IMG/VR virus record: IMGVR_UViG_2737471845_000031
Span: 1-35,029 of that record
Strand: one strand, 5' to 3'
Source: a virus
Lineage: Duplodnaviria; Heunggongvirae; Uroviricota; Caudoviricetes
DNA: 35,029 nucleotides
In this document: piece after piece, positions 9,835 through 26,033 of the stretch
Position numbering within the stretch: the first letter of the stretch is position 1
Layout: each line of letters opens with the position of its first letter
The notes under the pieces: generated by a model
What the model saw: the letters and a program-made list of their open reading frames with translations, nothing else
Databases searched by the model: none
Told to the model about the DNA's origin: nothing
Made by a program: the position numbers and the translations under genes

Positions 9835-11261
9835 CAGTTGCCCCCTTTCAGGGTTAACAGGTATTCCGAGGTGATCTCAGTCTCAAACGTCAGTCGCTCC
9901 AGCGGCGGTGGTGGCGTATATTTGTAGCTCAGCAACAGGTGCCCGGCGGCCAGCTCCGTTTCCGGATTGCGGGCCGGATCAAACCAGCAACGGAAGCCCA
10001 GTACCGCGCCATCACCAGTCATTTTGCGACCGTAGGCGTTGACCGACTCCGTCAGTGCATCAATCAGCGCCTGAGTAATCGGCATGTCGATGTACTGCTG
10101 GCTGAAGTAACGAATGGACTCATTGATCACATCACCGGTGCGGCGAACGTTCTCAAAGTTACGCATATGGGTGACCGTTGGCCATGCTGCCGTCCGGTTA
10201 CCCCACAGACGAAGGCCGCTGCCGTAACTGCTGAATACCGTGGTGATCCCCTGTTCGTTAAGCAGGTTCACCTCGCTCTGCGGATCGTCAATCATTGCCG
10301 ACAGCTGGCGCTCCACGCCGGTGATCCCCAGAATTTCCTGATTGGAGGATGACCACCAGTACCCTTTGTCCAGGTCGACTTTGGCACGCAGGCCCGCCGC
10401 ACGCTGGCTCAGTGGCTCCAGACGTTCCGTGTTCGTCACCGGGTCATATACCTTCACATGCGGGTAGCACAGGCGGACACGGTCAGAGCTGGTATTAAAG
10501 TTAATGGTGCCTTCCGGGCCTCGTCCCGCCAGAGCCTGCGCAAAAGTGGTACCAACCGGCGCATCAATATAGGTTACTGCTCCCAGTTTCTCAGCCATGG
10601 CGATAAGCTCAACCGAGACGCTGTTCTGGGTGCAGAATACCGGAGCAATCAGGATTTTGGCGAAGTAGCCAAACAGGTTAAAACTGTCGTTAAGCAGCTT
10701 CATGCCGGTACGGTTGCCTGCAGCGTTAACGGTACCGATGATATCAGCCGGGGTGACTTTGGTCGGATCAGCATAGTTATAGCTGGCCTTCACCGTTGCA
10801 TCTGCAGCAATGCTTTTACCCAGGTTAGTAATCACCCCGGTCTGTGCATCAAGCGAGTAGTCCTGACCTTCAACATAAGGCTGACCGTCGCTGTCCGGTT
10901 TCAGTACCAGCTGCGCGACCACCGGATTAGCCAGCCGGGCTCTGCCTGTCGCCTTGTCGAACGACACATTCTCACTGACCACAGCGGTTTTATGCACAGA
11001 CGGATCGAGTACGTTAATGACCAGAACGGTGCCTGCACCATGGTCATAAATCGCATCCAGCGCCTGTGGAATGGTAAAGCCGGTGAACTGGCTGCCAAAT
11101 GCCGCAGCGTCTTTCTCAGACAGGCACTGTACCAGCGTATTGACATCCCCCATTGGTGCGGTACCAATCAGGCCAATAACGGCAGATTTCACCGTTTTAA
11201 CCGGGCGGGCACCGTTTTCCACTTCAATGGTTTCCGGACCATGCAGATAGTTAGCTGACAT
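9834..11261 (-). CDS. tail sheath protein
   Basis: 475-aa ORF with GGAGG RBS, located upstream of the tube gene; size and position characteristic of contractile-tail sheath proteins. Confidence 0.85.
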   Translation of the reverse strand: MSANYLHGPETIEVENGARPVKTVKSAVIGLIGTAPMGDVNTLVQCLSEKDAAAFGSQFTGFTIPQALDAIYDHGAGTVLVINVLDPSVHKTAVVSENVSFDKATGRARLANPVVAQLVLKPDSDGQPYVEGQDYSLDAQTGVITNLGKSIAADATVKASYNYADPTKVTPADIIGTVNAAGNRTGMKLLNDSFNLFGYFAKILIAPVFCTQNSVSVELIAMAEKLGAVTYIDAPVGTTFAQALAGRGPEGTINFNTSSDRVRLCYPHVKVYDPVTNTERLEPLSQRAAGLRAKVDLDKGYWWSSSNQEILGITGVERQLSAMIDDPQSEVNLLNEQGITTVFSSYGSGLRLWGNRTAAWPTVTHMRNFENVRRTGDVINESIRYFSQQYIDMPITQALIDALTESVNAYGRKMTGDGAVLGFRCWFDPARNPETELAAGHLLLSYKYTPPPPLERLTFETEITSEYLLTLKGGN

Positions 11262-16342: not shown

Positions 16343-17816
16343 GCAGACGCCCCCAGATATTTGCCACAAAGAGAATGCGGGCCAACCGTTCCTGCAGATC
16401 GTCCGTGTTCATCTGAGGGTAGAGCTCCGCCAGTTCGCCCAGCAGCTCAGACGGGTTAACCCCATTTTCGACCCGCTTAAACAGAGGTGCCAGGACGGGT
16501 TCCAGCGTGCCATTTAACACACCTCCGTTCATCAGAATGTCCAGCGCGTCGTCAAGCTGCTGTTGTGCATCATGATCGGCGCTTATCGCCTCGGCAAATT
16601 CCGCAGGCACTGCCCCGTCCGCAACCGGTGCATCAGAGAGGTCAATATCCCCCTCCTGCAGCTGGTACTCCCGCATGAAGTACTGCGGGGTCAGGCGCAG
16701 TCCCGCGCGGGTGAGTTTTTCGTCGCGGGTGGCGCGGGTGTCATCAATGGTCTCCTGTTCCCACATGGCCCAGACCGGACACGGCACATCGCCGAAGTTC
16801 AGGGTGACCACCGTTCTGATAACCTGATTCACTGCTGCCTGAATGATGTCCGCATCCGCATCGCGGATATCAGCCGTTACCTCCAGCCCGGCCTGTGCAG
16901 AGGCCTTGTTACTGTTCGCTTCCGTGGTCTGATTCTGACCAAGTAATGCAATGGAGATCTCACTGCGTGACAGTGTGATCAGCTCGCGGAATACCTCGCT
17001 GCTGTCCGCCTTACCATCCGCGGCTTTGAGTTCGATGCTGCTGTCATCGGGGATGGCGGCCACCGCGTCCTCCACCATCTGCTCCATGGAGTCCAGCAGT
17101 TTTTCAATCTCTGCATCATTTGCACCCCTCGGGTGCTTACCGATCACCCACGGGGAGCCAAACTTTTCGGCAAAGCGGAGCCAGAATTTCATCCCGCCTT
17201 TCTTGAAGGCGACCGGCCAGAAGCACATGGACAGGTCAGGGAAACCGTAAGGATTGTCATACGAGGCATCCTGTGCCGGCACCACGAATTTTGACGGTGA
17301 CAGCAGCTCACCCTCCACACCCGCATCACGCGCCCGGAAGCGCAGGCAGTTGTCCGTATCAAACTGAAACCACTCAGGCGGTTTGCCGACAATATCCGTC
17401 ACCGCCCACGCCCTGACCGAACGGCCCCACATGATTTCACAGGGCTGATACCCGTAGAGCACGGCATCGCTCATCTCACCGATGATGCGGGACAGATCCA
17501 GATCGTCGAGCATGTCGCGGATGAAACGGAAGACCCGGGCAGAAGCGTGACCGCGCTCCAGTCCACGCTCCAGCGATTTGAGCGCTGCTTTACGTCTGCG
17601 GATACAGCCCCCGACCAGCGGGTCGGTGCGCAGTTCGCGGTAGATACGGATATCCCGTCCCTGAGCCTTGAGAATGGGATCAGGATTGGGCAGATACATG
17701 CCCAGTCCGTAAAAGTCGATCGCGCGGCTGCGGGAGGCAATCTGCGCGGTCAGTGATTTCTGAGGCTCAGAAAAAGCAACAAATTCATCGGGTGAAACCC
17801 AGATACCCCTCGCCAT
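16323..17816 (-). CDS. portal protein (Mu gp29-like)
   Basis: 497-aa ORF immediately downstream of the large terminase (TGATG overlap), followed by the F-like gene; acidic C-terminal region. Confidence 0.85.
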   Translation of the reverse strand: MARGIWVSPDEFVAFSEPQKSLTAQIASRSRAIDFYGLGMYLPNPDPILKAQGRDIRIYRELRTDPLVGGCIRRRKAALKSLERGLERGHASARVFRFIRDMLDDLDLSRIIGEMSDAVLYGYQPCEIMWGRSVRAWAVTDIVGKPPEWFQFDTDNCLRFRARDAGVEGELLSPSKFVVPAQDASYDNPYGFPDLSMCFWPVAFKKGGMKFWLRFAEKFGSPWVIGKHPRGANDAEIEKLLDSMEQMVEDAVAAIPDDSSIELKAADGKADSSEVFRELITLSRSEISIALLGQNQTTEANSNKASAQAGLEVTADIRDADADIIQAAVNQVIRTVVTLNFGDVPCPVWAMWEQETIDDTRATRDEKLTRAGLRLTPQYFMREYQLQEGDIDLSDAPVADGAVPAEFAEAISADHDAQQQLDDALDILMNGGVLNGTLEPVLAPLFKRVENGVNPSELLGELAELYPQMNTDDLQERLARILFVANIWGRLHERDNG

Positions 17817-19339
17817 CAGAATCCCTCCAGCATACGGGCCGCCTGACGACGACGGCGTGAGCTTGCCTTCACCGGCCCTTTGTTAATTTCACGGCTGGCG
17901 AAATACGCCAGCGCCAGTGCGATGGCTGAATCCCCGTGGCGTTTACCACCATCAGCCTTTGCTTTTGAGCGTTGCTCCGGCACGCGGGGGACACCGTTCA
18001 CCACCTGAACGGCCCGCAGGTCATCCAGTGTGTCTTCATCCTTTGGTAAGTCCACCAGGTTACCGTCTTCCAGTGCAGCTTTGACCGGAGGCATATGCTC
18101 CCGGTACCAGCCTTCGGTTGGCATCACCTGCTGAACCCGGCTGGAGCCGTAGCGCTGCATGGCGTATTCAGCCAGATAGGCACCATTACCACGGGCATCA
18201 AACGCAGCACCCAGCAGACCGGGCAGGCCATCCATCAGATACCAGGTGATTTGCTCCTGCTGCCTGAACGGCACGTTACGCAACTCCAGTACGAATGGCA
18301 CGCGTCGTATCAGGTTCTTCTCCTGCAGCAGGGGATAGTCCACCGACAAATCACCGCTACGGCCAAAGTCGCGCCCCAGAAAAGAGCGGGCACCAGCGGG
18401 GAGCGCCTCCAGCAAGGGTTTCAGATGCTCATCAAGCCAGTCCTGCGTCTCGCGGAAGCGAACCTCATCAGACAGCAGCTCATAACCTTCCTTGCAGGTC
18501 AGACGCAATACCGGCGTATCAGCGGACATGCGGGACTCTATCAGGGCTCGGGACAGCCAGGCACCGCCACCGTTGGCCGGAATACAGTCAAGCTCTTCGG
18601 ATGCACCGGCACCGTAGAATTTGTACACTGACGCCATCCAGGCCTGCTCGGATGCCTCCGACCATTCCTTCCCGGTGCGCAGACAAACGCGCCGGAACAG
18701 CCCCTCAGATACGGCTTCCCGGAAAGTGATGCGATGTACGCTGCCTCCCTGACGTCCGGCACGGATATCCCCGATAAGCGTATTGAACGGATTGTCGTCA
18801 CCGTCATGGGTGGAGATAACGCGTACCTTTCCCCCCCAGATAAGCATCGCCAGCGCCGCTTTCAGCAGTTCGTCCAGTTGCTCATGGAACGCCGCTTCGT
18901 CGATAACAATAATACCCTGACGGCCACGCAGGTTAGACGGGCGGCTGGAGAGCGCAACAATACGAAAGCCGGAGTCAGGAAATTTGATGGTGTAAGTCCT
19001 GATGTGTTTGTCGTCGTCGTCCTCTTCCCAGAATCCTTCTTCAATTTCACTGGCCGCATAGTTGAATGCCCGTGCCCACATCGCACACGCCTGAATGTAT
19101 TCGACGGTCATGTCCTGGTTATAAGCGATGTAATACACATTCATCCCGCCTGCTGGCGCAGAAGAGGCGGCGGTCAGTACGTTATCGGATGCCTCAGCCC
19201 ATGTAATACCGGTACGACGGCTCTTTTCTATCACCTTAAGCGGAGAGGCATCTGCCACCCAGCGCTGCTGGTAGGGCAACAGAACGGGAGGGGCCTTATA
19301 ACTCGCGGTGTCAGGAATGTGCGGCGGCAGCTCCGTCAT
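17816..19339 (-). CDS. terminase large subunit (Mu gp28-like)
   Basis: 507-aa ORF with a P-loop-like segment (KSRRTGITW) and a Walker B-like IVIDEAAF; located between the gp27-like and portal genes. Confidence 0.85.
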   Translation of the reverse strand: MTELPPHIPDTASYKAPPVLLPYQQRWVADASPLKVIEKSRRTGITWAEASDNVLTAASSAPAGGMNVYYIAYNQDMTVEYIQACAMWARAFNYAASEIEEGFWEEDDDDKHIRTYTIKFPDSGFRIVALSSRPSNLRGRQGIIVIDEAAFHEQLDELLKAALAMLIWGGKVRVISTHDGDDNPFNTLIGDIRAGRQGGSVHRITFREAVSEGLFRRVCLRTGKEWSEASEQAWMASVYKFYGAGASEELDCIPANGGGAWLSRALIESRMSADTPVLRLTCKEGYELLSDEVRFRETQDWLDEHLKPLLEALPAGARSFLGRDFGRSGDLSVDYPLLQEKNLIRRVPFVLELRNVPFRQQEQITWYLMDGLPGLLGAAFDARGNGAYLAEYAMQRYGSSRVQQVMPTEGWYREHMPPVKAALEDGNLVDLPKDEDTLDDLRAVQVVNGVPRVPEQRSKAKADGGKRHGDSAIALALAYFASREINKGPVKASSRRRRQAARMLEGF

Positions 19340-21168: not shown

Positions 21169-21886
21169 AGCTTGCCCCTCCCCATGAGAGATAACGCGGG
21201 GCCAGCGTGAACAGGATGCGCTGGGGATAATGACGGTTCTCCCGCCAGCTGGCAGCATTGCGTCCGGCATTCACCGTGGCGACATGTCCGAACCAGCGGG
21301 TACGGTCCAGCCCTTTCTGTGATGCAAGTTGCCTGTCCCGCTGTACCCAGCCCAGACCACCGTTATAGCCCGACAGTGTCATGGCCATACGCTCGCAGTC
21401 GTTGGCGGCGCTGACGCGCTGCCACAGCCAGCGGTCATAACTGACCAGCGCCCGGATAGCCCATGCCGGATTAAACGGCTCTCGACTGCTCAGCGCCGGC
21501 ATCAACTGGCTTATCCAGTCGGCAGTGGCAGGCATAAACTGCGCCAGTCCCTGAGCGCCAGCCGGCGAGATCGCATCAGGTCGCCAGCCGCTTTCCTGAT
21601 GCAGTTGCGCAGCGAAATCAGCCACCGGCGCAGACAGTCCCCATTCAAGCCGGGCATTACGGATCACATCATCGCGATACTGCAGCGCAGCCTGCGGAGG
21701 CTGCGCTGCGCGGGCCTGACTGAAGAAGCCGCCACACCAGAGCAGCCAGACAATCACCAGGTTGCCAGTAAGTTGCCACCAGAAGCTGTATTTATCGTTA
21801 CGTGGTTCTCCGTGTCTGATGGCGGTTACGCCCAGACCAAAGGCGAACAGAATAATGAGGGTGATTTGAGGCCAGTTCATGGTCAC
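21155..21886 (-). CDS. lytic transglycosylase endolysin with N-terminal membrane segments (SAR-like)
   Basis: 243-aa ORF with SLT-type motifs (HQESGWRP, GAQGLAQFMPATA) and two N-terminal hydrophobic segments. Start GTG 21886 overlapping the holin stop, or ATG 21880. Confidence 0.75.
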   Translation of the reverse strand: MTMNWPQITLIILFAFGLGVTAIRHGEPRNDKYSFWWQLTGNLVIVWLLWCGGFFSQARAAQPPQAALQYRDDVIRNARLEWGLSAPVADFAAQLHQESGWRPDAISPAGAQGLAQFMPATADWISQLMPALSSREPFNPAWAIRALVSYDRWLWQRVSAANDCERMAMTLSGYNGGLGWVQRDRQLASQKGLDRTRWFGHVATVNAGRNAASWRENRHYPQRILFTLAPRYLSWGGASCVGT

Positions 21887-22233
21887 AGTCCTGTTGCCAC
21901 AGCCAGACAGATCGCTGCAACAATCAGTGCACGGCGGATTAACGCAGCAGCAAACACAAGGTGAAGGCCGGTCTGCACAGGGAAACGCCCTTCAGCCATC
22001 AGCCTGTCGTCATGTTTCAGGTACTGACCGGGACGGGCTTTGGGGAAGAGCGAACGGTCAAGCCAGTAACCCAGCACTGCTGCCAGCGTGATGAGTGCCA
22101 GCTTGTAGATCACAACAGGCAACTGCTGTGGCGAGACCAGAGCGATGGTGCCCAGCAACAGCACTGAGGTCAGCAGCCAGCCGCTGAGGCGAGGTTTTTT
22201 AACAGGGGGAATGAATTTTTTCAGGCTTTTCAT
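21883..22233 (-). CDS. holin-like membrane protein
   Basis: ~116 aa from ATG 22233 (AAGGAG RBS); three predicted TM segments; first gene of the lysis cassette. The ORF-track start at 22266 is less likely. Confidence 0.55.
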   Translation of the reverse strand: MKSLKKFIPPVKKPRLSGWLLTSVLLLGTIALVSPQQLPVVIYKLALITLAAVLGYWLDRSLFPKARPGQYLKHDDRLMAEGRFPVQTGLHLVFAAALIRRALIVAAICLAVATGL

Positions 22234-22252
22234 GTGTGTCTCCTTGTCTGGT

Positions 22253-22291
22253 GGAGACAGCATCACAAATACAGGGCGCGAAGGATTTTAA
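22253..22291 (-). promoter_or_regulatory. candidate activator-dependent late promoter and leader upstream of lysis genes
   Basis: Minus-strand TTAAAATC, 23 nt, CTGTCTCC, then ACCAGACAAGGAGACACAC-ATG; CTGTCTCC can pair with GGAGACA that includes the SD. Poor -35. Confidence 0.45.
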
Positions 22292-22363
22292 AGCGCGTTA
22301 AGAGAGCCGGGGATACGGGGTGTGCAGGATAAACGATGAATTATTCACAGAGGAGAATACGAT

Positions 22364-23107
22364 ATGACGCACACACTGAATCCGGTCATCACTGTCACTG
22401 TGTCCGGTCCTGTGGGCAGCGGTAAAAGTTACGTACTGGCGCGGATAGAAGAGATGGTGAAACAGGAACTCGGAAACAGCGTCATTGTCGATGCTGCTGA
22501 CGTGGAGAATGAGCGCCGTATGAGTGGCGATGATCTGACGACCTGGCAGAAGCCACGGGCTGGCACAGTGATCAGGCTGGAGGAATACACGGGACAGGGC
22601 CTGTTGTCATACGGCGAGGAGCGTATCTGTCGGACGAATGAGCTGCTGGATGTTATATGCCCCACGGGCCGGCAACCCTGGATACTGCCCGATGCACTGC
22701 ATGCCACCATTGCGGCACTGATGACAGTTTACGATCAGGAGCTGCTCATGAAGGAGTTACGTAAACTCGCTGGTCAGCCAACAGAATGTTTTTCGGCCCC
22801 GAAGTACGGGAAGCAGGAACACATCCCGGTGAACACAATCCCCGTTAACCAGCCTCCCCGGTTCTTCGACGAATACATTCTGACACCGGAAAATAAAGCT
22901 GAGCATGAAGAGATCAAAGCGGCGTTGTTCCGGGAAATCAGGAAGATTGCTGAAATGCAGCTGGAGGGCGGGCTGGACAGAGTGATGGCGAGAGGAGAAT
23001 GGGAATCGCTGTTTGAAAAAGTTTCCCCGGAATTGCTTCCCCTCGCACTGGCTATCGGGATTATGCAGACAACGGATAAACCTCACTTACGTTCATTAAA
23101 CACGTAA
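22364..23107 (+). CDS. hypothetical P-loop (Walker A) protein
   Basis: 247-aa ORF, ATG 22364 with AGGAGA RBS; N-terminal VSGPVGSGKSYVL Walker A-like motif; no further recognisable domain. Divergent from the late operon. Confidence 0.5.
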   Translation: MTHTLNPVITVTVSGPVGSGKSYVLARIEEMVKQELGNSVIVDAADVENERRMSGDDLTTWQKPRAGTVIRLEEYTGQGLLSYGEERICRTNELLDVICPTGRQPWILPDALHATIAALMTVYDQELLMKELRKLAGQPTECFSAPKYGKQEHIPVNTIPVNQPPRFFDEYILTPENKAEHEEIKAALFREIRKIAEMQLEGGLDRVMARGEWESLFEKVSPELLPLALAIGIMQTTDKPHLRSLNT

Positions 23108-23487
23108 CGCATAATCCGGGATACGCATTCAGCGATGACTGCATTTTCACCGGTTTTTACTGCATCCAGAAGCGACTCTTTAAATGGCACGGGCCGGGGC
23201 TGCAGAAAGGTCGGCATGGCATTGAGCAGACAGAGCGTTTTTTCCGTGAGGACGACATCAGCCGCTCCCACAGCCAGCAACTGAGAGTAACGAATATAGC
23301 TGTTATCCCGAAGCCATATCAGCGTATCAATAAAATACCGGCACTTTTTCTGGTCGTGATCAACCTGGTCCGGGATATCGAAAAAACCAGAATAAATCAA
23401 AACCTGAGGTACCGGATGCGTGTTCAGTAATCGGCAGAATATTTTGCCGGTGAGTACATAAAAATCATCATTTAAGGAGTGCATCAT
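23083..23487 (-). CDS. hypothetical protein, paralog B of the 23951-24331 gene
   Basis: 134-aa ORF filling the gap between flanking plus-strand ORFs. Alignable blocks with paralog A (IFCRLLNTHP ~ IFGRLYESFP, FIDTLIWLRDNSY ~ FLDTVDWLKNSGY, VVLTEKTLCLLNA ~ AVLTAKGLEVLNA). Confidence 0.45.
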   Translation of the reverse strand: MMHSLNDDFYVLTGKIFCRLLNTHPVPQVLIYSGFFDIPDQVDHDQKKCRYFIDTLIWLRDNSYIRYSQLLAVGAADVVLTEKTLCLLNAMPTFLQPRPVPFKESLLDAVKTGENAVIAECVSRIMRYVFNERK

Positions 23488-23701
23488 GAATCCCCGATTA
23501 ACGTTAACAGAACATCAGCGCCGTGCTGAAGCAGTGAACAATGTTCTGGAAGATATTATCCGGTTACATCGCGGAGAACTGAGTATCTGTCGTGCCACTG
23601 TTCATTTTCAGGAAATACAAAAGCAGTTTGATACTTCTGTTTTTGCAGAAGGGCTCACTTACGCCCTGGACCAGATAAGGTCAGAAAATCACCCCGGATA
23701 A
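23486..23701 (+). CDS. hypothetical small protein
   Basis: 71-aa ORF with AAGGAG RBS 6 nt upstream; its start overlaps the divergent paralog B start (CATG). It may instead be non-coding leader. Confidence 0.35.
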   Translation: MNPRLTLTEHQRRAEAVNNVLEDIIRLHRGELSICRATVHFQEIQKQFDTSVFAEGLTYALDQIRSENHPG

Positions 23702-23757
23702 TCCCTAAACCGCATTAACAGAAATCCCACTATCCCTGCCGCATCATGAAAGAACGA

Positions 23758-23785
23758 CCAGCCCGGCACCCGAAAGCCGGGCTGG
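23758..23785 (-). terminator. GC-rich hairpin (candidate minus-strand terminator)
   Basis: Perfect 10-bp inverted repeat CCAGCCCGGC / GCCGGGCTGG with 8-nt loop; minus-strand downstream sequence is TCGTTCTTTCATG. Confidence 0.4.
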
Positions 23786-23890
23786 CCATCGTCCCACAGG
23801 AATGCACTGTGAGCCGACCGAGGTTCAGTCAGTCTCGTGAGACCAGACTAGCCTGCCATATTTTTAATAATTGTAAAATGTTTACAGATT

Positions 23891-23992
23891 ATGAAAACGC
23901 AGACATTACCCATCGTTCCATGGATTGGTGGCAAACGCTGCCTTGCGATATTACATAAGACCACGAGACATATATTGCAGACCTATTCCTAG
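23891..23992 (+). pseudogene. diverged 5' remnant of a second Dam methyltransferase gene
   Basis: Encodes MKTQTLPIVPWIGGKRCLAILHK..., matching the Dam N-terminus MKEQSLPIVPWIGGKRRLAKHILPQ; stops after 33 codons and runs into the 3' end of the paralog A gene. Preceded by a ~90-nt leader ~70% identical to the leader of the intact dam. Confidence 0.5.
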
Positions 23993-24331
23993 AGTCTGGC
24001 TAACCAGTGATCGCAACGCTTCTTTCCCTTCAATTTTTATAGAGTCAGATATTCTGGCCCCCAACGGTTTTTCCAGACTTCCAGGCGTAGCGTTTAATAC
24101 CTCAAGACCTTTAGCCGTTAGCACTGCGTTGTGGATCCCCCCAGAACTACGCGCCCCGATTAAATAGCCACTGTTTTTAAGCCAGTCTACGGTATCAAGA
24201 AAAAAAGTAAGTTCATTCTGTCTAACGATATCAACTGCCTTTATATCAATTTTGACGGGGAAAGATTCGTAGAGTCTCCCAAATATCTCACCAACTATTT
24301 CATTAAACCGCTCAATATTTTTTGGGGCCAT
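23951..24331 (-). CDS. hypothetical protein, paralog A (possible winged-helix protein)
   Basis: Likely ~126 aa from ATG 24331 (GGGAG upstream); the ORF-track start at 24415 would cover a hairpin. Contains an LT-x-KG-like segment (AVLTAKGLEVL). Divergent from dam. Confidence 0.5.
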   Translation of the reverse strand: MAPKNIERFNEIVGEIFGRLYESFPVKIDIKAVDIVRQNELTFFLDTVDWLKNSGYLIGARSSGGIHNAVLTAKGLEVLNATPGSLEKPLGARISDSIKIEGKEALRSLVSQTLGIGLQYMSRGLM

Positions 24332-24378
24332 GGTATTAGTAACTCCCTTTAATTGTCGCCCATGAAATATGCAAATAA

Positions 24379-24411
24379 CATGAAAAGAGCGACTCACCTT
24401 GTGCAGCGAAC
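24379..24411 (-). terminator. hairpin (candidate minus-strand terminator or insulator) between dam leader and paralog A
   Basis: 13-bp inverted repeat GACTCACCTTGTG / CACAAGGCGAGTC (one mismatch) with 7-nt loop; minus-strand downstream sequence GCTCTTTTCATGTTATTTGC. Confidence 0.4.
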
Positions 24412-24525
24412 ACAAGGCGAGTCATCAACTTACAGGTATGAGCTGTGAGTCAACCGAGGCTCTTCCGTTCTCGAGAACAAGGGAAGCCTATCGCATTTTC
24501 ATCTAATGAAAAAGGCTTACAGATA

Positions 24526-25290
24526 ATGAAAGAACAATCTTTACCCATCGTCCCCTGGATTGGGGGAAAACGTCGTCTGGCCAAACACATTCTGCCTCAG
24601 TTCCCACTCCATACCTGCTATGTGGAGCCATTCTGCGGCGCAGCAGCACTTTATTTTCTCAAGACTCCCAGCAAGATCGAAGTCATTAACGATATCAACG
24701 GTGAACTGGTAAATCTGTATCGGGTAGTAAAGCATCATCTGGAAGAATTTGTCCGCCAATTCAAATGGGCGCTGGTTAGCCGGCAGATCTACAAATGGCT
24801 GCAGATCACCCCGGAAGAAACACTGACGGATATCCAGCGTGCGGCACGGTTCTACTACCTCCAGAAGCAGGCGTTTGGGGGCAAGGTGGCAGAGCACAGC
24901 TTCGGCACCTCCACCACCTCCCCGCCACGCTTCAACCTGCTACGGATTGAAGAAGAACTGTCAGCGGCACACCTGCGGCTTTCCAGAACGGTGATAGAAC
25001 ACATGGACTGGCACCAGTGCATTAAGCGTTATGACCGTCCGCACACGCTGTTCTACTGTGATCCGCCCTATCTGGGGACGGAAGGCTATGGTGTGGATTT
25101 TCCTGAAGAGAACTACACACTACTCGCAGAACTGGCACGGTGCATCAGAGGAAAGATGATTATCTCGGTGAATGACATTCCGCAGATGCGTCGGGTGTTC
25201 ACTGAACTGAACATACAGACGGTGAATATCAACTACAGTCTGGCGGGGAAACCCACGCCACGCCGTGAACTGGTAATCTGCAACTTCTGA
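24526..25290 (+). CDS. dam: DNA N6-adenine methyltransferase (Dam family)
   Basis: 254 aa from ATG 24526; N-terminus LPIVPWIGGKRRL, FCGAAAL SAM-binding-type motif and catalytic DPPY, as in Dam-family N6-adenine methyltransferases. No adjacent restriction endonuclease gene. Confidence 0.85.
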   Translation: MKEQSLPIVPWIGGKRRLAKHILPQFPLHTCYVEPFCGAAALYFLKTPSKIEVINDINGELVNLYRVVKHHLEEFVRQFKWALVSRQIYKWLQITPEETLTDIQRAARFYYLQKQAFGGKVAEHSFGTSTTSPPRFNLLRIEEELSAAHLRLSRTVIEHMDWHQCIKRYDRPHTLFYCDPPYLGTEGYGVDFPEENYTLLAELARCIRGKMIISVNDIPQMRRVFTELNIQTVNINYSLAGKPTPRRELVICNF

Positions 25291-25405: not shown

Positions 25406-25744
25406 TCAGCCTGCGAGTTTGCTTGGTTTGGGTTGAATGAAGACTTTGCCGACCTCAAGAATTGCCCTCCGTTGTTCGGGGCTCATTTCGTCGAATGCAT
25501 CCATTAACTCTTTCTTTTCTTGTGACACATAAGGTGCAACAACAGGCTGACTCCGCACCCCAGTAACTACATACAAAATATCTACACCGATTTCTGATAG
25601 TGCAGATAACTGCACTGCAGTAGGAGAAGTGCGATCTTTTTCCCAATCAATGAAAGTTCTCTTTGCCACACCTATAGCATCAGCCAACCCTTGCTGTGTA
25701 AGAGATAGACGCTCTCTTTCTTCTTTAATACGTAACCCGATCAT
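25406..25744 (-). CDS. XRE-family HTH lysogeny repressor
   Basis: Likely 113 aa from ATG 25744; HTH region LSLTQQGLADAIGVAKRTFIDWEKDRTSP. Divergent from the early operon, as for Mu c/ner. The ORF-track start 25897 would overlap the early gene by 53 nt. Confidence 0.75.
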   Translation of the reverse strand: MIGLRIKEERERLSLTQQGLADAIGVAKRTFIDWEKDRTSPTAVQLSALSEIGVDILYVVTGVRSQPVVAPYVSQEKKELMDAFDEMSPEQRRAILEVGKVFIQPKPSKLAG

Positions 25745-25768
25745 GTGAGTTTTTCTGCACTCTTTAAG

Positions 25769-25797
25769 TTGACTGGTGAGATAATCTGCACCATAAT
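25769..25797 (+). promoter_or_regulatory. early promoter (sigma70-like) with candidate operator repeats
   Basis: TTGACT (25769-25774), 17-nt spacer, CATAAT (25792-25797), ~47 nt upstream of the first early gene. TCTGCAC occurs twice (25754, 25785) and ATAATCT twice. Confidence 0.55.
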
Positions 25798-25844
25798 CTA
25801 TCACACATAAGGCAAACATCATTGCATCAACAAAGGAGACAACG

Positions 25845-26033
25845 ATGACTGCAGAACAAGTCAAAGCTCTCTTCCGCCAGCGCGGGATCACTTTCACCCG
25901 CTGGGCAGAAGAAAACGGCTACAACCGCAATGAGGTATACCGCGTTCTCAATGGGCAGACCAAAGCCCGTTACGGTAAATCCCATGAAATCGCCGTGAAG
26001 TTGGGGCTGAAATCAACAGCTCAGGCAGCCTGA
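25845..26033 (+). CDS. Cro/Ner-like small DNA-binding regulator
   Basis: 62-aa ORF, AAGGAG RBS 6 nt upstream, first gene of the early operon divergent from the repressor; helical basic protein. Confidence 0.55.
   Translation: MTAEQVKALFRQRGITFTRWAEENGYNRNEVYRVLNGQTKARYGKSHEIAVKLGLKSTAQAA

What the first reader, a model, noticed from the sequence alone, without database searches (positions are those of the whole stretch)
22364..23107. Unassigned P-loop protein divergent from the late promoter
This protein has a clear Walker A motif (GPVGSGKSY) in the first 25 residues but no recognisable Walker B or known ATPase architecture, and it is transcribed away from the lysis operon with its own strong RBS. 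Small NTPases in prophage accessory regions are common components of defence or abortive-infection systems.
Basis: inference. Interest (0 to 1): 0.6.

Follow-up and report, generated by a model that had tools for sequence, protein, structure and literature searches.

The report
Mini P-loop phage protein, shuffled tail
The gene is real and under selection, but it is not an ordinary NTPase: it encodes a tiny (about 75-residue) phosphate-binding P-loop domain, typical of a rare phage-only family, joined to interchangeable helical modules, and what it does is still unknown.

Summary
The ORF at 22364-23107 (+), its Walker A motif (GPVGSGKS, residues 15-22), its GAGGAG ribosome-binding site and its divergent orientation to the holin gene are all confirmed. 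The window is a BcepMu-like transposable prophage of E. coli. The gene occurs in 583 of 5426 complete E. coli genomes and is PHROG 3787, function unknown.

A scan of 1.84 billion representative proteins found only 64 relatives. They share only residues 1-75, a mini P-loop domain with invariant G20, K21, I28, E50, L72 and E74 and a Walker-B-like VIRLEE strand. The domain also occurs as free-standing 70-90-residue proteins in unrelated phages.

The rest of the protein consists of short helical modules that are shuffled between E. coli, Salmonella and Citrobacter alleles. In one divergent prophage the same three parts are three adjacent genes. dN/dS is 0.25.

No Pfam, NCBIfam, PADLOC, PDB or fold match passes threshold beyond the strand-P-loop-helix element. 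The defence reading is neither supported nor excluded.

My best guess is an oligomerising phosphate- or nucleotide-binding core that carries variable partner-binding modules and serves the phage during lytic growth or host conflict.

I rate it a new variant of a known kind, of moderate interest.

The parts
22364..23107 (+). Complete gene for the 247-aa modular mini-P-loop protein (stop codon at 23105-23107)
   Evidence: ORF list and sequence. Identical to E. coli M-17 WP_000149907.1. PHROG 3787 at E 2.4e-164. dN/dS 0.25.
22350..22355 (+). Shine-Dalgarno sequence GAGGAG, 8 nt upstream of the ATG
   Evidence: Sequence. GAGGA is invariant in nine aligned loci, including ones with only 47-58% protein identity.
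22364..22588 (+). Residues 1-75: mini P-loop domain (strand 1, Walker A, helix 1, strand 2, a loop carrying E50-R51 and W61/P64, strand 3). This is the only part conserved across the family.
22406..22429 (+). Walker A motif GPVGSGKS (residues 15-22)
   Evidence: Sequence. G15 is near-invariant and G20 and K21 are invariant across the family; S22 is near-invariant.
22568..22585 (+). Residues 69-74, VIRLEE: candidate Walker-B-like strand with invariant L72 and E74
   Evidence: Invariant columns in A5 and A7. Strand 69-75 in both AF2 models.
22589..22672 (+). Residues 76-103: variable linker, the most divergent stretch among E. coli alleles
   Evidence: Alignment A1.
22673..22771 (+). Residues 104-136: helical module PWILPDALHATIAALMTVYDQELLMKELRKL. 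It recurs as the C-terminal end of many family members.
   Evidence: BLASTP module map. dN/dS 0.04. Its homologue forms the end of the separate 161-aa gene in L045.
22772..22894 (+). Residues 137-177: proline-rich linker predicted to be disordered
   Evidence: No secondary structure and pLDDT 26-28 in the AF2 model.
22895..23104 (+). Residues 178-247: helical C-terminal module (core about 191-235). It exists as a separate 76-aa gene in L045 and resembles the stand-alone PHROG 25421.
   Evidence: Helices in AF2 with pLDDT 52-67. L045_76 against window residues 191-220, E 3e-4. Weak PHROG 25421 hit. Its last 25 nt overlap the convergent gene 23083-23487.
22234..22363 (.). Divergent intergenic region shared with the holin gene. 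It holds the conserved motif TTTTAAAGCGCGTTAAGAG (22286-22304), with a TAAAAT -10-like hexamer on the holin strand and no -35, and the conserved GCAGGAT.
   Evidence: Alignment of nine loci. The consensus scan found no sigma-70-type promoter on the + strand. That this region is the late promoter is my inference.

Best explanation
The gene encodes a modular phage protein.

Shown. Its only family-defining part is an N-terminal mini P-loop domain of about 75 residues: strand, Walker A, helix, strand, loop, strand, with invariant K21, E50 and E74. That is far too small to be a complete NTPase core. The same domain exists as free-standing 70-90-residue proteins in other phages. The remainder is a string of short helical modules that are swapped between alleles and that are separate, adjacent genes in a divergent relative. 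The gene is a long-standing, purifying-selected resident of the slot beside the holin and late promoter in enterobacterial BcepMu-like prophages.

Inferred. The mini domain binds a phosphate ligand (NTP, polyphosphate or nucleic-acid backbone) through the P-loop, S22 and the conserved acidic residues. It completes its sheet by self-association. It therefore acts as a ligand-dependent oligomerising core that carries the variable modules as partner-binding arms.

Inferred, and weaker. It works for the phage during lytic development or host takeover, for example as counter-defence alongside the neighbouring Dam methylase, rather than as a lysogen-protecting abortive-infection NTPase.
For: A full HMMER scan of 1.84e9 representative proteins found only 64 hits, and these align to residues 1-75 only, on proteins of 70-364 aa. 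Invariant G20, K21, I28, E50, L72 and E74 appear in alignments A5 and A7.

The module mosaic is shown. The three-gene split in L045, in the same slot, is shown. Synteny beside the holin gene holds in 23 IMG/VR loci and L045, at 34-100% identity. dN/dS is 0.25. G+C content matches the backbone.

In a sub-lineage (P0028, P0051, P0052) S22, P16-G18, D46 and E50 are lost together. This suggests that these residues form one site and that the scaffold has a role beyond catalysis.

Free-standing homologues are co-oriented with late, packaging or replication genes. One overlaps the stop codon of LysC.

Engineered single strand-(P-loop)-helix polypeptides bind NTPs, polyphosphate and ssDNA as oligomers (bioRxiv 10.1101/2020.07.30.228619). 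A domain this small can therefore be functional.
Against: There are no biochemical data. The AF2 confidence is only moderate: pLDDT 66, and the loop at residues 43-55 is below 50. Oligomerisation is inferred and was not modelled. No promoter or expression timing is known for the gene. In this phage it is transcribed away from the late operon, unlike the free-standing homologues. In-frame deletion alleles that lack strand 3 (182 aa, P0012 and P0014) and many truncated alleles persist in E. coli, so the full domain is dispensable at least in lysogens. Nothing identifies a target for the modules.
Confidence: 0.4

Rival explanations
1. Prophage-encoded defence or abortive-infection NTPase. The protein is expressed in the lysogen, its variable C-terminal modules sense an invading phage, and the P-loop domain then acts as a toxic or signalling effector.
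For: The gene lies in the variable region between the immunity and lysis genes, where BcepMu-like phages carry cargo. It is oriented against the late operon, so it could be expressed independently. The C-terminus diversifies quickly by cassette shuffling. From general knowledge: fused defence proteins such as CapRel SJ46 combine a conserved N-terminal effector with a variable C-terminal sensor.
Against: No PADLOC model matches beyond the P-loop (E >= 0.015). A 75-residue domain lacks the parts an NTPase effector needs. There is no partner gene. Free-standing homologues sit inside late or replication operons and on large phage-like contigs next to a ligase gene, which points to lytic-cycle expression. 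The gene is lineage-conserved in position rather than sporadic. No promoter was detected.
Confidence: 0.2
2. Accessory factor of the late or packaging programme, for example a small DNA-phosphate- or ATP-binding helper acting with terminase/HNH or on DNA ends.
For: Five independent free-standing homologues lie 0.1-1.5 kb upstream of TerS/TerL on the same strand (L006, L008, L009, L042, L011). Three of them are adjacent to homologous gp74-like HNH genes. Two others are adjacent to NAD-dependent DNA ligase. One lies between PolA and RNase H/primase. In this window the gene is about 2.4 kb from the TerS gene.
Against: Here the gene is transcribed away from the late operon. BcepMu itself and Klebsiella phage KP12 have the same lysis and packaging module without this gene. 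A hypervariable C-terminus and in-frame deletion alleles are not expected for a core packaging factor. The positions next to cos/terminase in lambdoid prophages are also classic sites for acquired accessory genes.
Confidence: 0.15
3. Lysis-associated factor. The protein would be released or activated with the holin and would bind a phosphate-containing envelope precursor, or it would tune lysis timing.
For: It is immediately adjacent to the holin gene in all BcepMu-like loci. The Yersinia homologue is the last gene of the lysis cassette and its start overlaps the LysC stop codon. One family member (P0081) is a fusion of PG_binding_1 (E 4.7e-15) to the mini P-loop domain.
Against: There is only one such fusion, and it is on a 2.9-kb contig. 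The gene is divergent from the lysis operon here, not co-transcribed with it. Most free-standing homologues are not next to lysis genes. The protein has no signal peptide or transmembrane segment.
Confidence: 0.08
4. Decaying or function-less remnant, in which the Walker A motif is a relic of a truncated NTPase gene kept only by linkage to the late promoter.
For: Many truncated, frameshifted and internally deleted alleles exist. Annotation pipelines give the fragments inconsistent names ('ABC transporter ATPase', 'KAP family NTPase').
Against: dN/dS is 0.25 overall and 0.04-0.27 in the structured parts. The Walker A motif, E50 and E74 are conserved down to about 30% identity across unrelated phages. 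The ribosome-binding site is conserved. Intact full-length alleles cover at least 80% of the query in 483 complete genomes.
Confidence: 0.07

Closest known systems
PHROG 3787 (phage protein family, function unknown)
   Same: Full-length match, E 2.4e-164, residues 1-247 against profile positions 1-242. The free-standing homologues hit the first 75 positions of the same profile.
   Different: The PHROG carries no function. It describes the fused E. coli-type protein, not the 75-residue domain that is the real conserved unit.
P-loop NTPase superfamily, especially the small P-loop kinases (PRK/uridine kinase/PanK-like, thymidylate, cytidylate and APS kinases)
Engineered 'P-loop prototypes' and de novo P-loop ATPases (PDB 6c2u/6c2v phosphate-loop protein; 9jix PL2x4_2)
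   Same: These are very small proteins built around one or a few strand-(P-loop)-helix elements. They are among the best sequence hits in the PDB: 9jix at E 8e-4 to 0.026 over residues 6-72, and 6c2u at 2e-4. The prototypes bind NTP, polyphosphate and ssDNA as oligomers.
   Different: Those proteins are artificial. This one is a natural, selected phage family with additional conserved residues (E50, R51, W61, P64, E74). No binding or oligomerisation has been shown for it.
Domain-shuffled phage regulators and effectors (Bro-N/KilA-N antirepressor-type proteins; CapRel-type fused systems). This comparison rests on general knowledge and was not tested.
   Same: A conserved N-terminal domain is combined with freely exchanged C-terminal modules among related phages.
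   Different: There is no sequence or fold relationship. The C-terminal type here does not track the repressor type: the same C-terminus occurs with at least three repressor variants. That argues against an antirepressor role.

Membership tests
P-loop NTPase fold | [quoted passage not shown] | tested here: met
   GPVGSGKS at residues 15-22, with strand 8-14 and helix 21-39. The motif is conserved across the family.
P-loop NTPase fold | Walker B: a hydrophobic strand ending in Asp or Glu | tested here: inconclusive
   VIRLEE at residues 69-74, with invariant L72 and E74. The spacing is hhhLxE rather than hhhhD/E, and its position next to the P-loop could not be verified at this model quality.
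P-loop NTPase fold | A complete alpha/beta core of at least five strands (about 150 residues or more) | tested here: not met
P-loop NTPase fold | NTP binding and hydrolysis | not testable with these tools
   This needs biochemistry.
ABC transporter ATPase (RefSeq name of the truncated alleles) | An ABC_tran domain with a Q-loop, the LSGGQ signature, Walker B/D-loop and an H-loop | tested here: not met
   Pfam ABC_tran scores 12.5-18 bits against a cut-off of 25 and covers only profile positions 7-51 of 137. The sequence contains no LSGGQ-like signature.
KAP family NTPase (RefSeq name of other truncated alleles) | A KAP P-loop domain of about 300 residues | tested here: not met
   Pfam KAP_NTPase scores 14.3-16 bits against a cut-off of 20 and covers only profile positions 16-56 of 293.
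Known anti-phage defence proteins (PADLOC-DB 2.0.0) | A significant match to a defence-system model, plus the partner genes of that system | tested here: not met
   The best hits are SngB at 0.015 and HerA at 0.029, over the P-loop region only. The neighbouring genes have no hits except the Dam methylase. There is no conserved partner gene.
PRK/uridine kinase-like P-loop kinases | A family-level sequence match including the acceptor-binding and lid regions | tested here: not met
Terminase or packaging ATPase | A TerL ATPase or other packaging-ATPase domain | tested here: not met
   PHROG 2666 (TerL) at E 0.1, over the P-loop only. The phage's own TerL is at 17816-19339.
PHROG 3787 | A full-length profile match | tested here: met
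   E 2.4e-164, residues 1-247. The family has no assigned function.

The most novel reading that the evidence does not exclude
The N-terminal 75 residues would be a naturally occurring, autonomously functional minimal P-loop domain, a living counterpart of the engineered 'P-loop prototypes'. It would bind NTP, polyphosphate or nucleic-acid phosphates only as an oligomer. In enterobacterial BcepMu-like phages it would be the constant subunit of a cassette-shuffling system of small helical modules, which can be fused or encoded as separate genes. Together these would make a previously undescribed phage-host conflict system, either counter-defence or exclusion.
Probability: 0.2. Interest if true: 0.75.

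Novelty: new variant of a known kind. Interest (0 to 1): 0.45.

Why it matters
The gene is carried by about one in nine complete E. coli genomes, including ST131-type strains, yet it has no function and is given misleading names such as 'ABC transporter ATPase' and 'KAP family NTPase'.

Recognising that the conserved unit is a 75-residue P-loop domain does two things. First, it corrects the annotation. Second, it offers a natural test case for how small a functional P-loop protein can be, a question so far addressed only with engineered polypeptides.

The module shuffling and the fused-versus-split gene forms give a ready-made experimental handle on which parts interact. The fixed position next to the late promoter in a transposable-phage lineage suggests a role that can be tested by simple deletion and induction experiments.

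Tried and rejected
1. Full-length AF2 with 12 close sequences gave pLDDT 46, so it was not used for fold search.

2. tblastn against 50,697 phage records, with both the full protein and the N-domain at E up to 10, found only phage PhiKM plus P-loop noise.

3. The search for related loci failed with the divergent alignment A3 because no stretch was conserved enough. With A4 on genome contigs the scan was swamped by the generic pattern VSGP[TV]GSGK, and only 2 of 600 candidates were real.

4. The AFDB50 fold library was not available. Foldseek against the PDB gave nothing at E below 0.39.

5. Literature searches for the accession numbers, the PHROG id, BcepMu-like E. coli prophages and prophage defence screens gave nothing on this gene.

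6. The consensus promoter scan found no sigma-70-type promoter for the gene.

7. Antirepressor idea: rejected. The same C-terminal type occurs with at least three different repressor variants.

8. Conserved two-gene system idea: rejected. Flanking small ORFs of the free-standing homologues are unrelated to each other, apart from gp74-like HNH genes. The phrog_2266 neighbours are present only in this window's type and in L045.

9. ABC, KAP, PRK/uridine kinase, zeta toxin and helicase assignments: all sub-threshold and limited to the strand-P-loop-helix element.

Full report
**1. The observation**

The ORF 22364-23107 (+) encodes 247 residues from an ATG start. GAGGAG at 22350-22355 lies 8 nt upstream of the ATG. 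GPVGSGKS occupies residues 15-22. Both structure predictions place it between a strand (8-14) and a helix (21-36/39).

The gene diverges from a holin gene at 21883-22233 (Pfam Holin_2-3, E 2.6e-40). The holin gene is followed by an SLT endolysin and a spanin-like gene.

**2. Context**

The window is a BcepMu-like (Bcepmuvirus) transposable prophage.
- It is 100% identical over the gene to E. coli M-17 (NZ_CP068394).
- It is 93.7% identical to phage PhiKM.
- On the minus strand are the late genes: holin, endolysin, spanin, DUF3486 TerS, TerL and portal.
- On the other side lie a Dam methylase, an HTH repressor, a Ner-like protein and the transposase.

The gene is found in 583 of 5426 complete E. 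coli genomes, always on the chromosome. In 483 of them the match covers at least 80% of the query.

RefSeq calls the full-length form 'hypothetical protein'. It calls truncated alleles 'ABC transporter ATPase' or 'KAP family NTPase'.

**3. Family searches**

| Library | Result |
|---|---|
| PHROGs | PHROG 3787, function unknown, E 2.4e-164 |
| Pfam | only sub-threshold hits from many P-loop families, confined to about residues 4-56 |
| NCBIfam | nothing above cut-off |
| PADLOC | nothing beyond the P-loop (best E 0.015) |
| PDB sequences | nothing beyond the strand-P-loop-helix element |

The word-indexed search of 5.8 billion proteins found only E. coli relatives of at least 64% identity.

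An exhaustive HMMER scan of 1.84 billion cluster representatives found only 64 proteins at E up to 1e-3. Nearly all of them match residues 1-75 only. These hits fall into three groups:
- Proteins of 125-364 aa from Salmonella, Citrobacter and E. coli with unrelated C-terminal parts.
- Free-standing proteins of 70-90 aa.
- One fusion behind a PG_binding_1 domain (P0081).

**4. The conserved domain**

Alignments of 18-31 N-domains show the following.
- Invariant: G20, K21, I28, E74. L72 is also invariant in A5. E50 is invariant in A5 and near-invariant in A3 and A7.
- Near-invariant in at least one alignment: G15, S22, V24, L32, G37. R51, W61 and P64 are majority (consensus) residues rather than near-invariant.
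- Position 46 is mostly acidic.

The third strand reads hhhLxE (VIRLEE, residues 69-74). This is a Walker-B-like element, so 'no Walker B' is too strong.

In one sub-lineage (P0028, P0051, P0052) four features are lost together: GKS becomes GKN, P-V-G becomes A-E-S, D46 becomes A and E50 becomes K. The scaffold is kept. I take this as evidence that these residues form one ligand site. I also take it that the fold has a second role, structural or in assembly.

AF2 on the domain with 18 sequences gives pLDDT 66 and pTM 0.56, with 73-83 over the strand 1 / helix 1 / strand 3 core and a poorly defined 43-55 loop.

Fold searches gave:
- Foldseek against the PDB: nothing significant.
- Foldseek against BFVD: one significant hit, an unnamed 72-aa phage protein at 36% identity.

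The domain is therefore a fragment-sized P-loop unit and not a member of any described NTPase class.

Engineered single strand-(P-loop)-helix polypeptides bind NTPs, polyphosphate and ssDNA as oligomers. This shows that such a small unit can be functional, and it motivates the oligomer hypothesis.

**5. The rest of the protein**

AF2 and the alignments divide the protein as follows.

| Residues | Feature |
|---|---|
| 76-103 | variable linker |
| 104-136 | helical module |
| 137-177 | proline-rich disordered linker |
| 178-247 | helical domain |

The 104-136 module recurs as the C-terminal end of many relatives and of the 141-aa E. coli alleles. Other relatives carry different modules in different orders. 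Some of these modules match other PHROGs of unknown function.

Locus L045 is the most informative. It is a BcepMu-like prophage whose N-domain is only 34% identical to this one. In the same slot, divergent from the holin gene, the protein is split into three co-oriented genes:
- an 88-aa mini P-loop protein;
- a 161-aa protein equal to the middle modules, ending in the homologue of residues 104-136;
- a 76-aa protein equal to residues about 191-225.

The parts are therefore independent units that belong together.

**6. Selection and residence**

Nei-Gojobori dN/dS over 10 distinct full-length alleles:

| Region (residues) | dN/dS |
|---|---|
| whole gene | 0.25 |
| 1-75 | 0.27 |
| 104-136 | 0.04 |
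| 178-247 | 0.18 |

In all 23 BcepMu-like IMG/VR loci and in L045, the gene sits about 130 bp from the holin start. Downstream content varies.

Its G+C content (52-56%) is like the backbone. The block at 23,000-24,600 is 41-48% G+C.

BcepMu itself and Klebsiella phage KP12 lack the gene.

The intergenic region has a conserved motif with a -10-like TAAAAT on the holin strand and no -35. That is consistent with an activator-dependent late promoter, which is my inference. The ribosome-binding site of the P-loop gene is conserved, but no recognisable sigma-70 promoter was found for it.

**7. Contexts of the free-standing homologues**

| Locus | Context |
|---|---|
| L006 (Yersinia prophage) | last gene of the lysis cassette, start overlapping the LysC stop codon, then HNH-TerS-TerL |
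| L008, L009 (Acinetobacter-type prophages) | directly after an HNH gene and before TerS; a Lar-like gene lies upstream in L008 |
| L042 | HNH, P-loop gene, two small ORFs, TerS/TerL |
| L011 | 1.3 kb upstream of TerS/TerL |
| L043, L044 | next to NAD-dependent DNA ligase on large phage-like contigs; an Acb2/Tad1-like gene lies nearby in L044 |
| L036 | between PolA and RNase H/primase |
| L038, L040 | near an integrase gene; HNH genes upstream in L040 |

No conserved partner gene exists apart from gp74-like HNH genes.

The trend is placement at the head of the late or packaging block, or among DNA-metabolism genes, and co-orientation with those genes. That placement implies expression in the lytic cycle.

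**8. Interpretation**

Shown:
- It is a real, selected gene.
- It has a minimal P-loop domain.
- That domain defines a rare, phage-restricted family.
- The rest of the protein has a shuffled, separable module architecture.
- The gene has a conserved slot in one prophage lineage.

Inferred:
- The domain binds a phosphate ligand and self-associates.
- The modules are partner-binding arms.
- The protein serves the phage, perhaps in counter-defence together with Dam, rather than acting as a lysogen-protecting NTPase.

I put 0.4 on this package. The rivals are:

| Rival | Confidence |
|---|---|
| defence or abortive infection | 0.2 |
| late or packaging accessory factor | 0.15 |
| lysis-associated factor | 0.08 |
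| decaying relic | 0.07 |

None of the rivals is excluded. The gene's divergent orientation here, and the persistence of deletion alleles that lack strand 3, are the main facts that my preferred reading does not explain well.

**9. Novelty and score**

P-loop proteins are known, and the gene family is already catalogued as a PHROG of unknown function. To my knowledge two things have not been described:
- the conserved unit is an autonomous P-loop domain of about 75 residues;
- in BcepMu-like phages it is combined with cassette-like modules that are either fused to it or encoded as separate genes.

I rate it a new variant of a known kind. Interest is 0.45: structurally intriguing and easy to test, but without a demonstrated function.

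Noticed in passing
window 23083-23487 (-) and 23951-24415 (-); L045 5965-6531 (-): Two paralogous genes of PHROG 2266, function unknown (27.5% identity, E 7e-11), flank the small gene at 23486-23701. A third homologue occupies the equivalent position, convergent with the P-loop gene cluster, in the divergent prophage L045. No Pfam, NCBIfam or PADLOC hit.
   Followed up: partly
window 23485-23488: The start codons of the minus-strand 134-aa gene and the plus-strand 71-aa gene (PHROG 4490) overlap back-to-back by 2 nt. Each gene's promoter and 5' leader must therefore lie inside the other's coding sequence. The 134-aa gene also overlaps the 3' end of the P-loop gene by 25 nt.
   Followed up: no
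window 22238-22258: An inverted repeat GTCTCC-N9-GGAGAC overlaps the holin Shine-Dalgarno sequence. It is invariant in nine loci, including ones where the holin is only 64-67% identical. It may be a hairpin on the holin mRNA that sequesters the ribosome-binding site.
   Followed up: partly
window 22285-22304: The conserved intergenic motif TTTTAAAG(C/G)GC(G/T)TTAA(G/T)AG contains a TAAAAT -10-like hexamer on the holin strand with no -35. It is a candidate Mor/C-type activator-dependent late promoter.
   Followed up: partly
window 24390-24424: A long inverted repeat (15 pairs, 5-nt loop) lies in the divergent region between the 154-aa gene and the Dam methylase gene. The terminator scan flagged it. 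It may be an operator or a regulatory hairpin.
   Followed up: no
window about 23000-24600: G+C drops to 41-48%, against 52-63% in the P-loop gene and the late genes. This suggests that the phrog_2266/phrog_4490 block is more recently acquired cargo.
   Followed up: partly
L005 4518-5066 (-), L045 6670-7224 (-), L041 (BcepMu) 10663-11199: BcepMu gp19, a Burkholderia phage protein of unknown function, has homologues at 53-65% identity in the same holin-to-repressor region of enterobacterial prophages. That is unexpectedly high conservation across such distant hosts.
   Followed up: partly
window 25406-25897 (-) and 25845-26033 (+): The repressor ORF and the divergent Ner-like ORF overlap at their 5' ends by 20-53 nt, depending on which start codon is used.
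   Followed up: no
L044 180-596 (-); L008 5096-5398 (+): Loci with free-standing mini P-loop genes also carry an Acb2/Tad1-hairpin-family gene (L044, 4.5 kb away) and a weak Lar restriction-alleviation-like gene (L008, 0.6 kb upstream). This may hint at anti-defence neighbourhoods.
   Followed up: no
proteins P0021, P0082: Near-identical fragments of the E. coli protein are deposited under Pseudomonas aeruginosa and Salmonella Montevideo on contigs shorter than 1 kb. The likely causes are contamination or very recent transfer.
   Followed up: no
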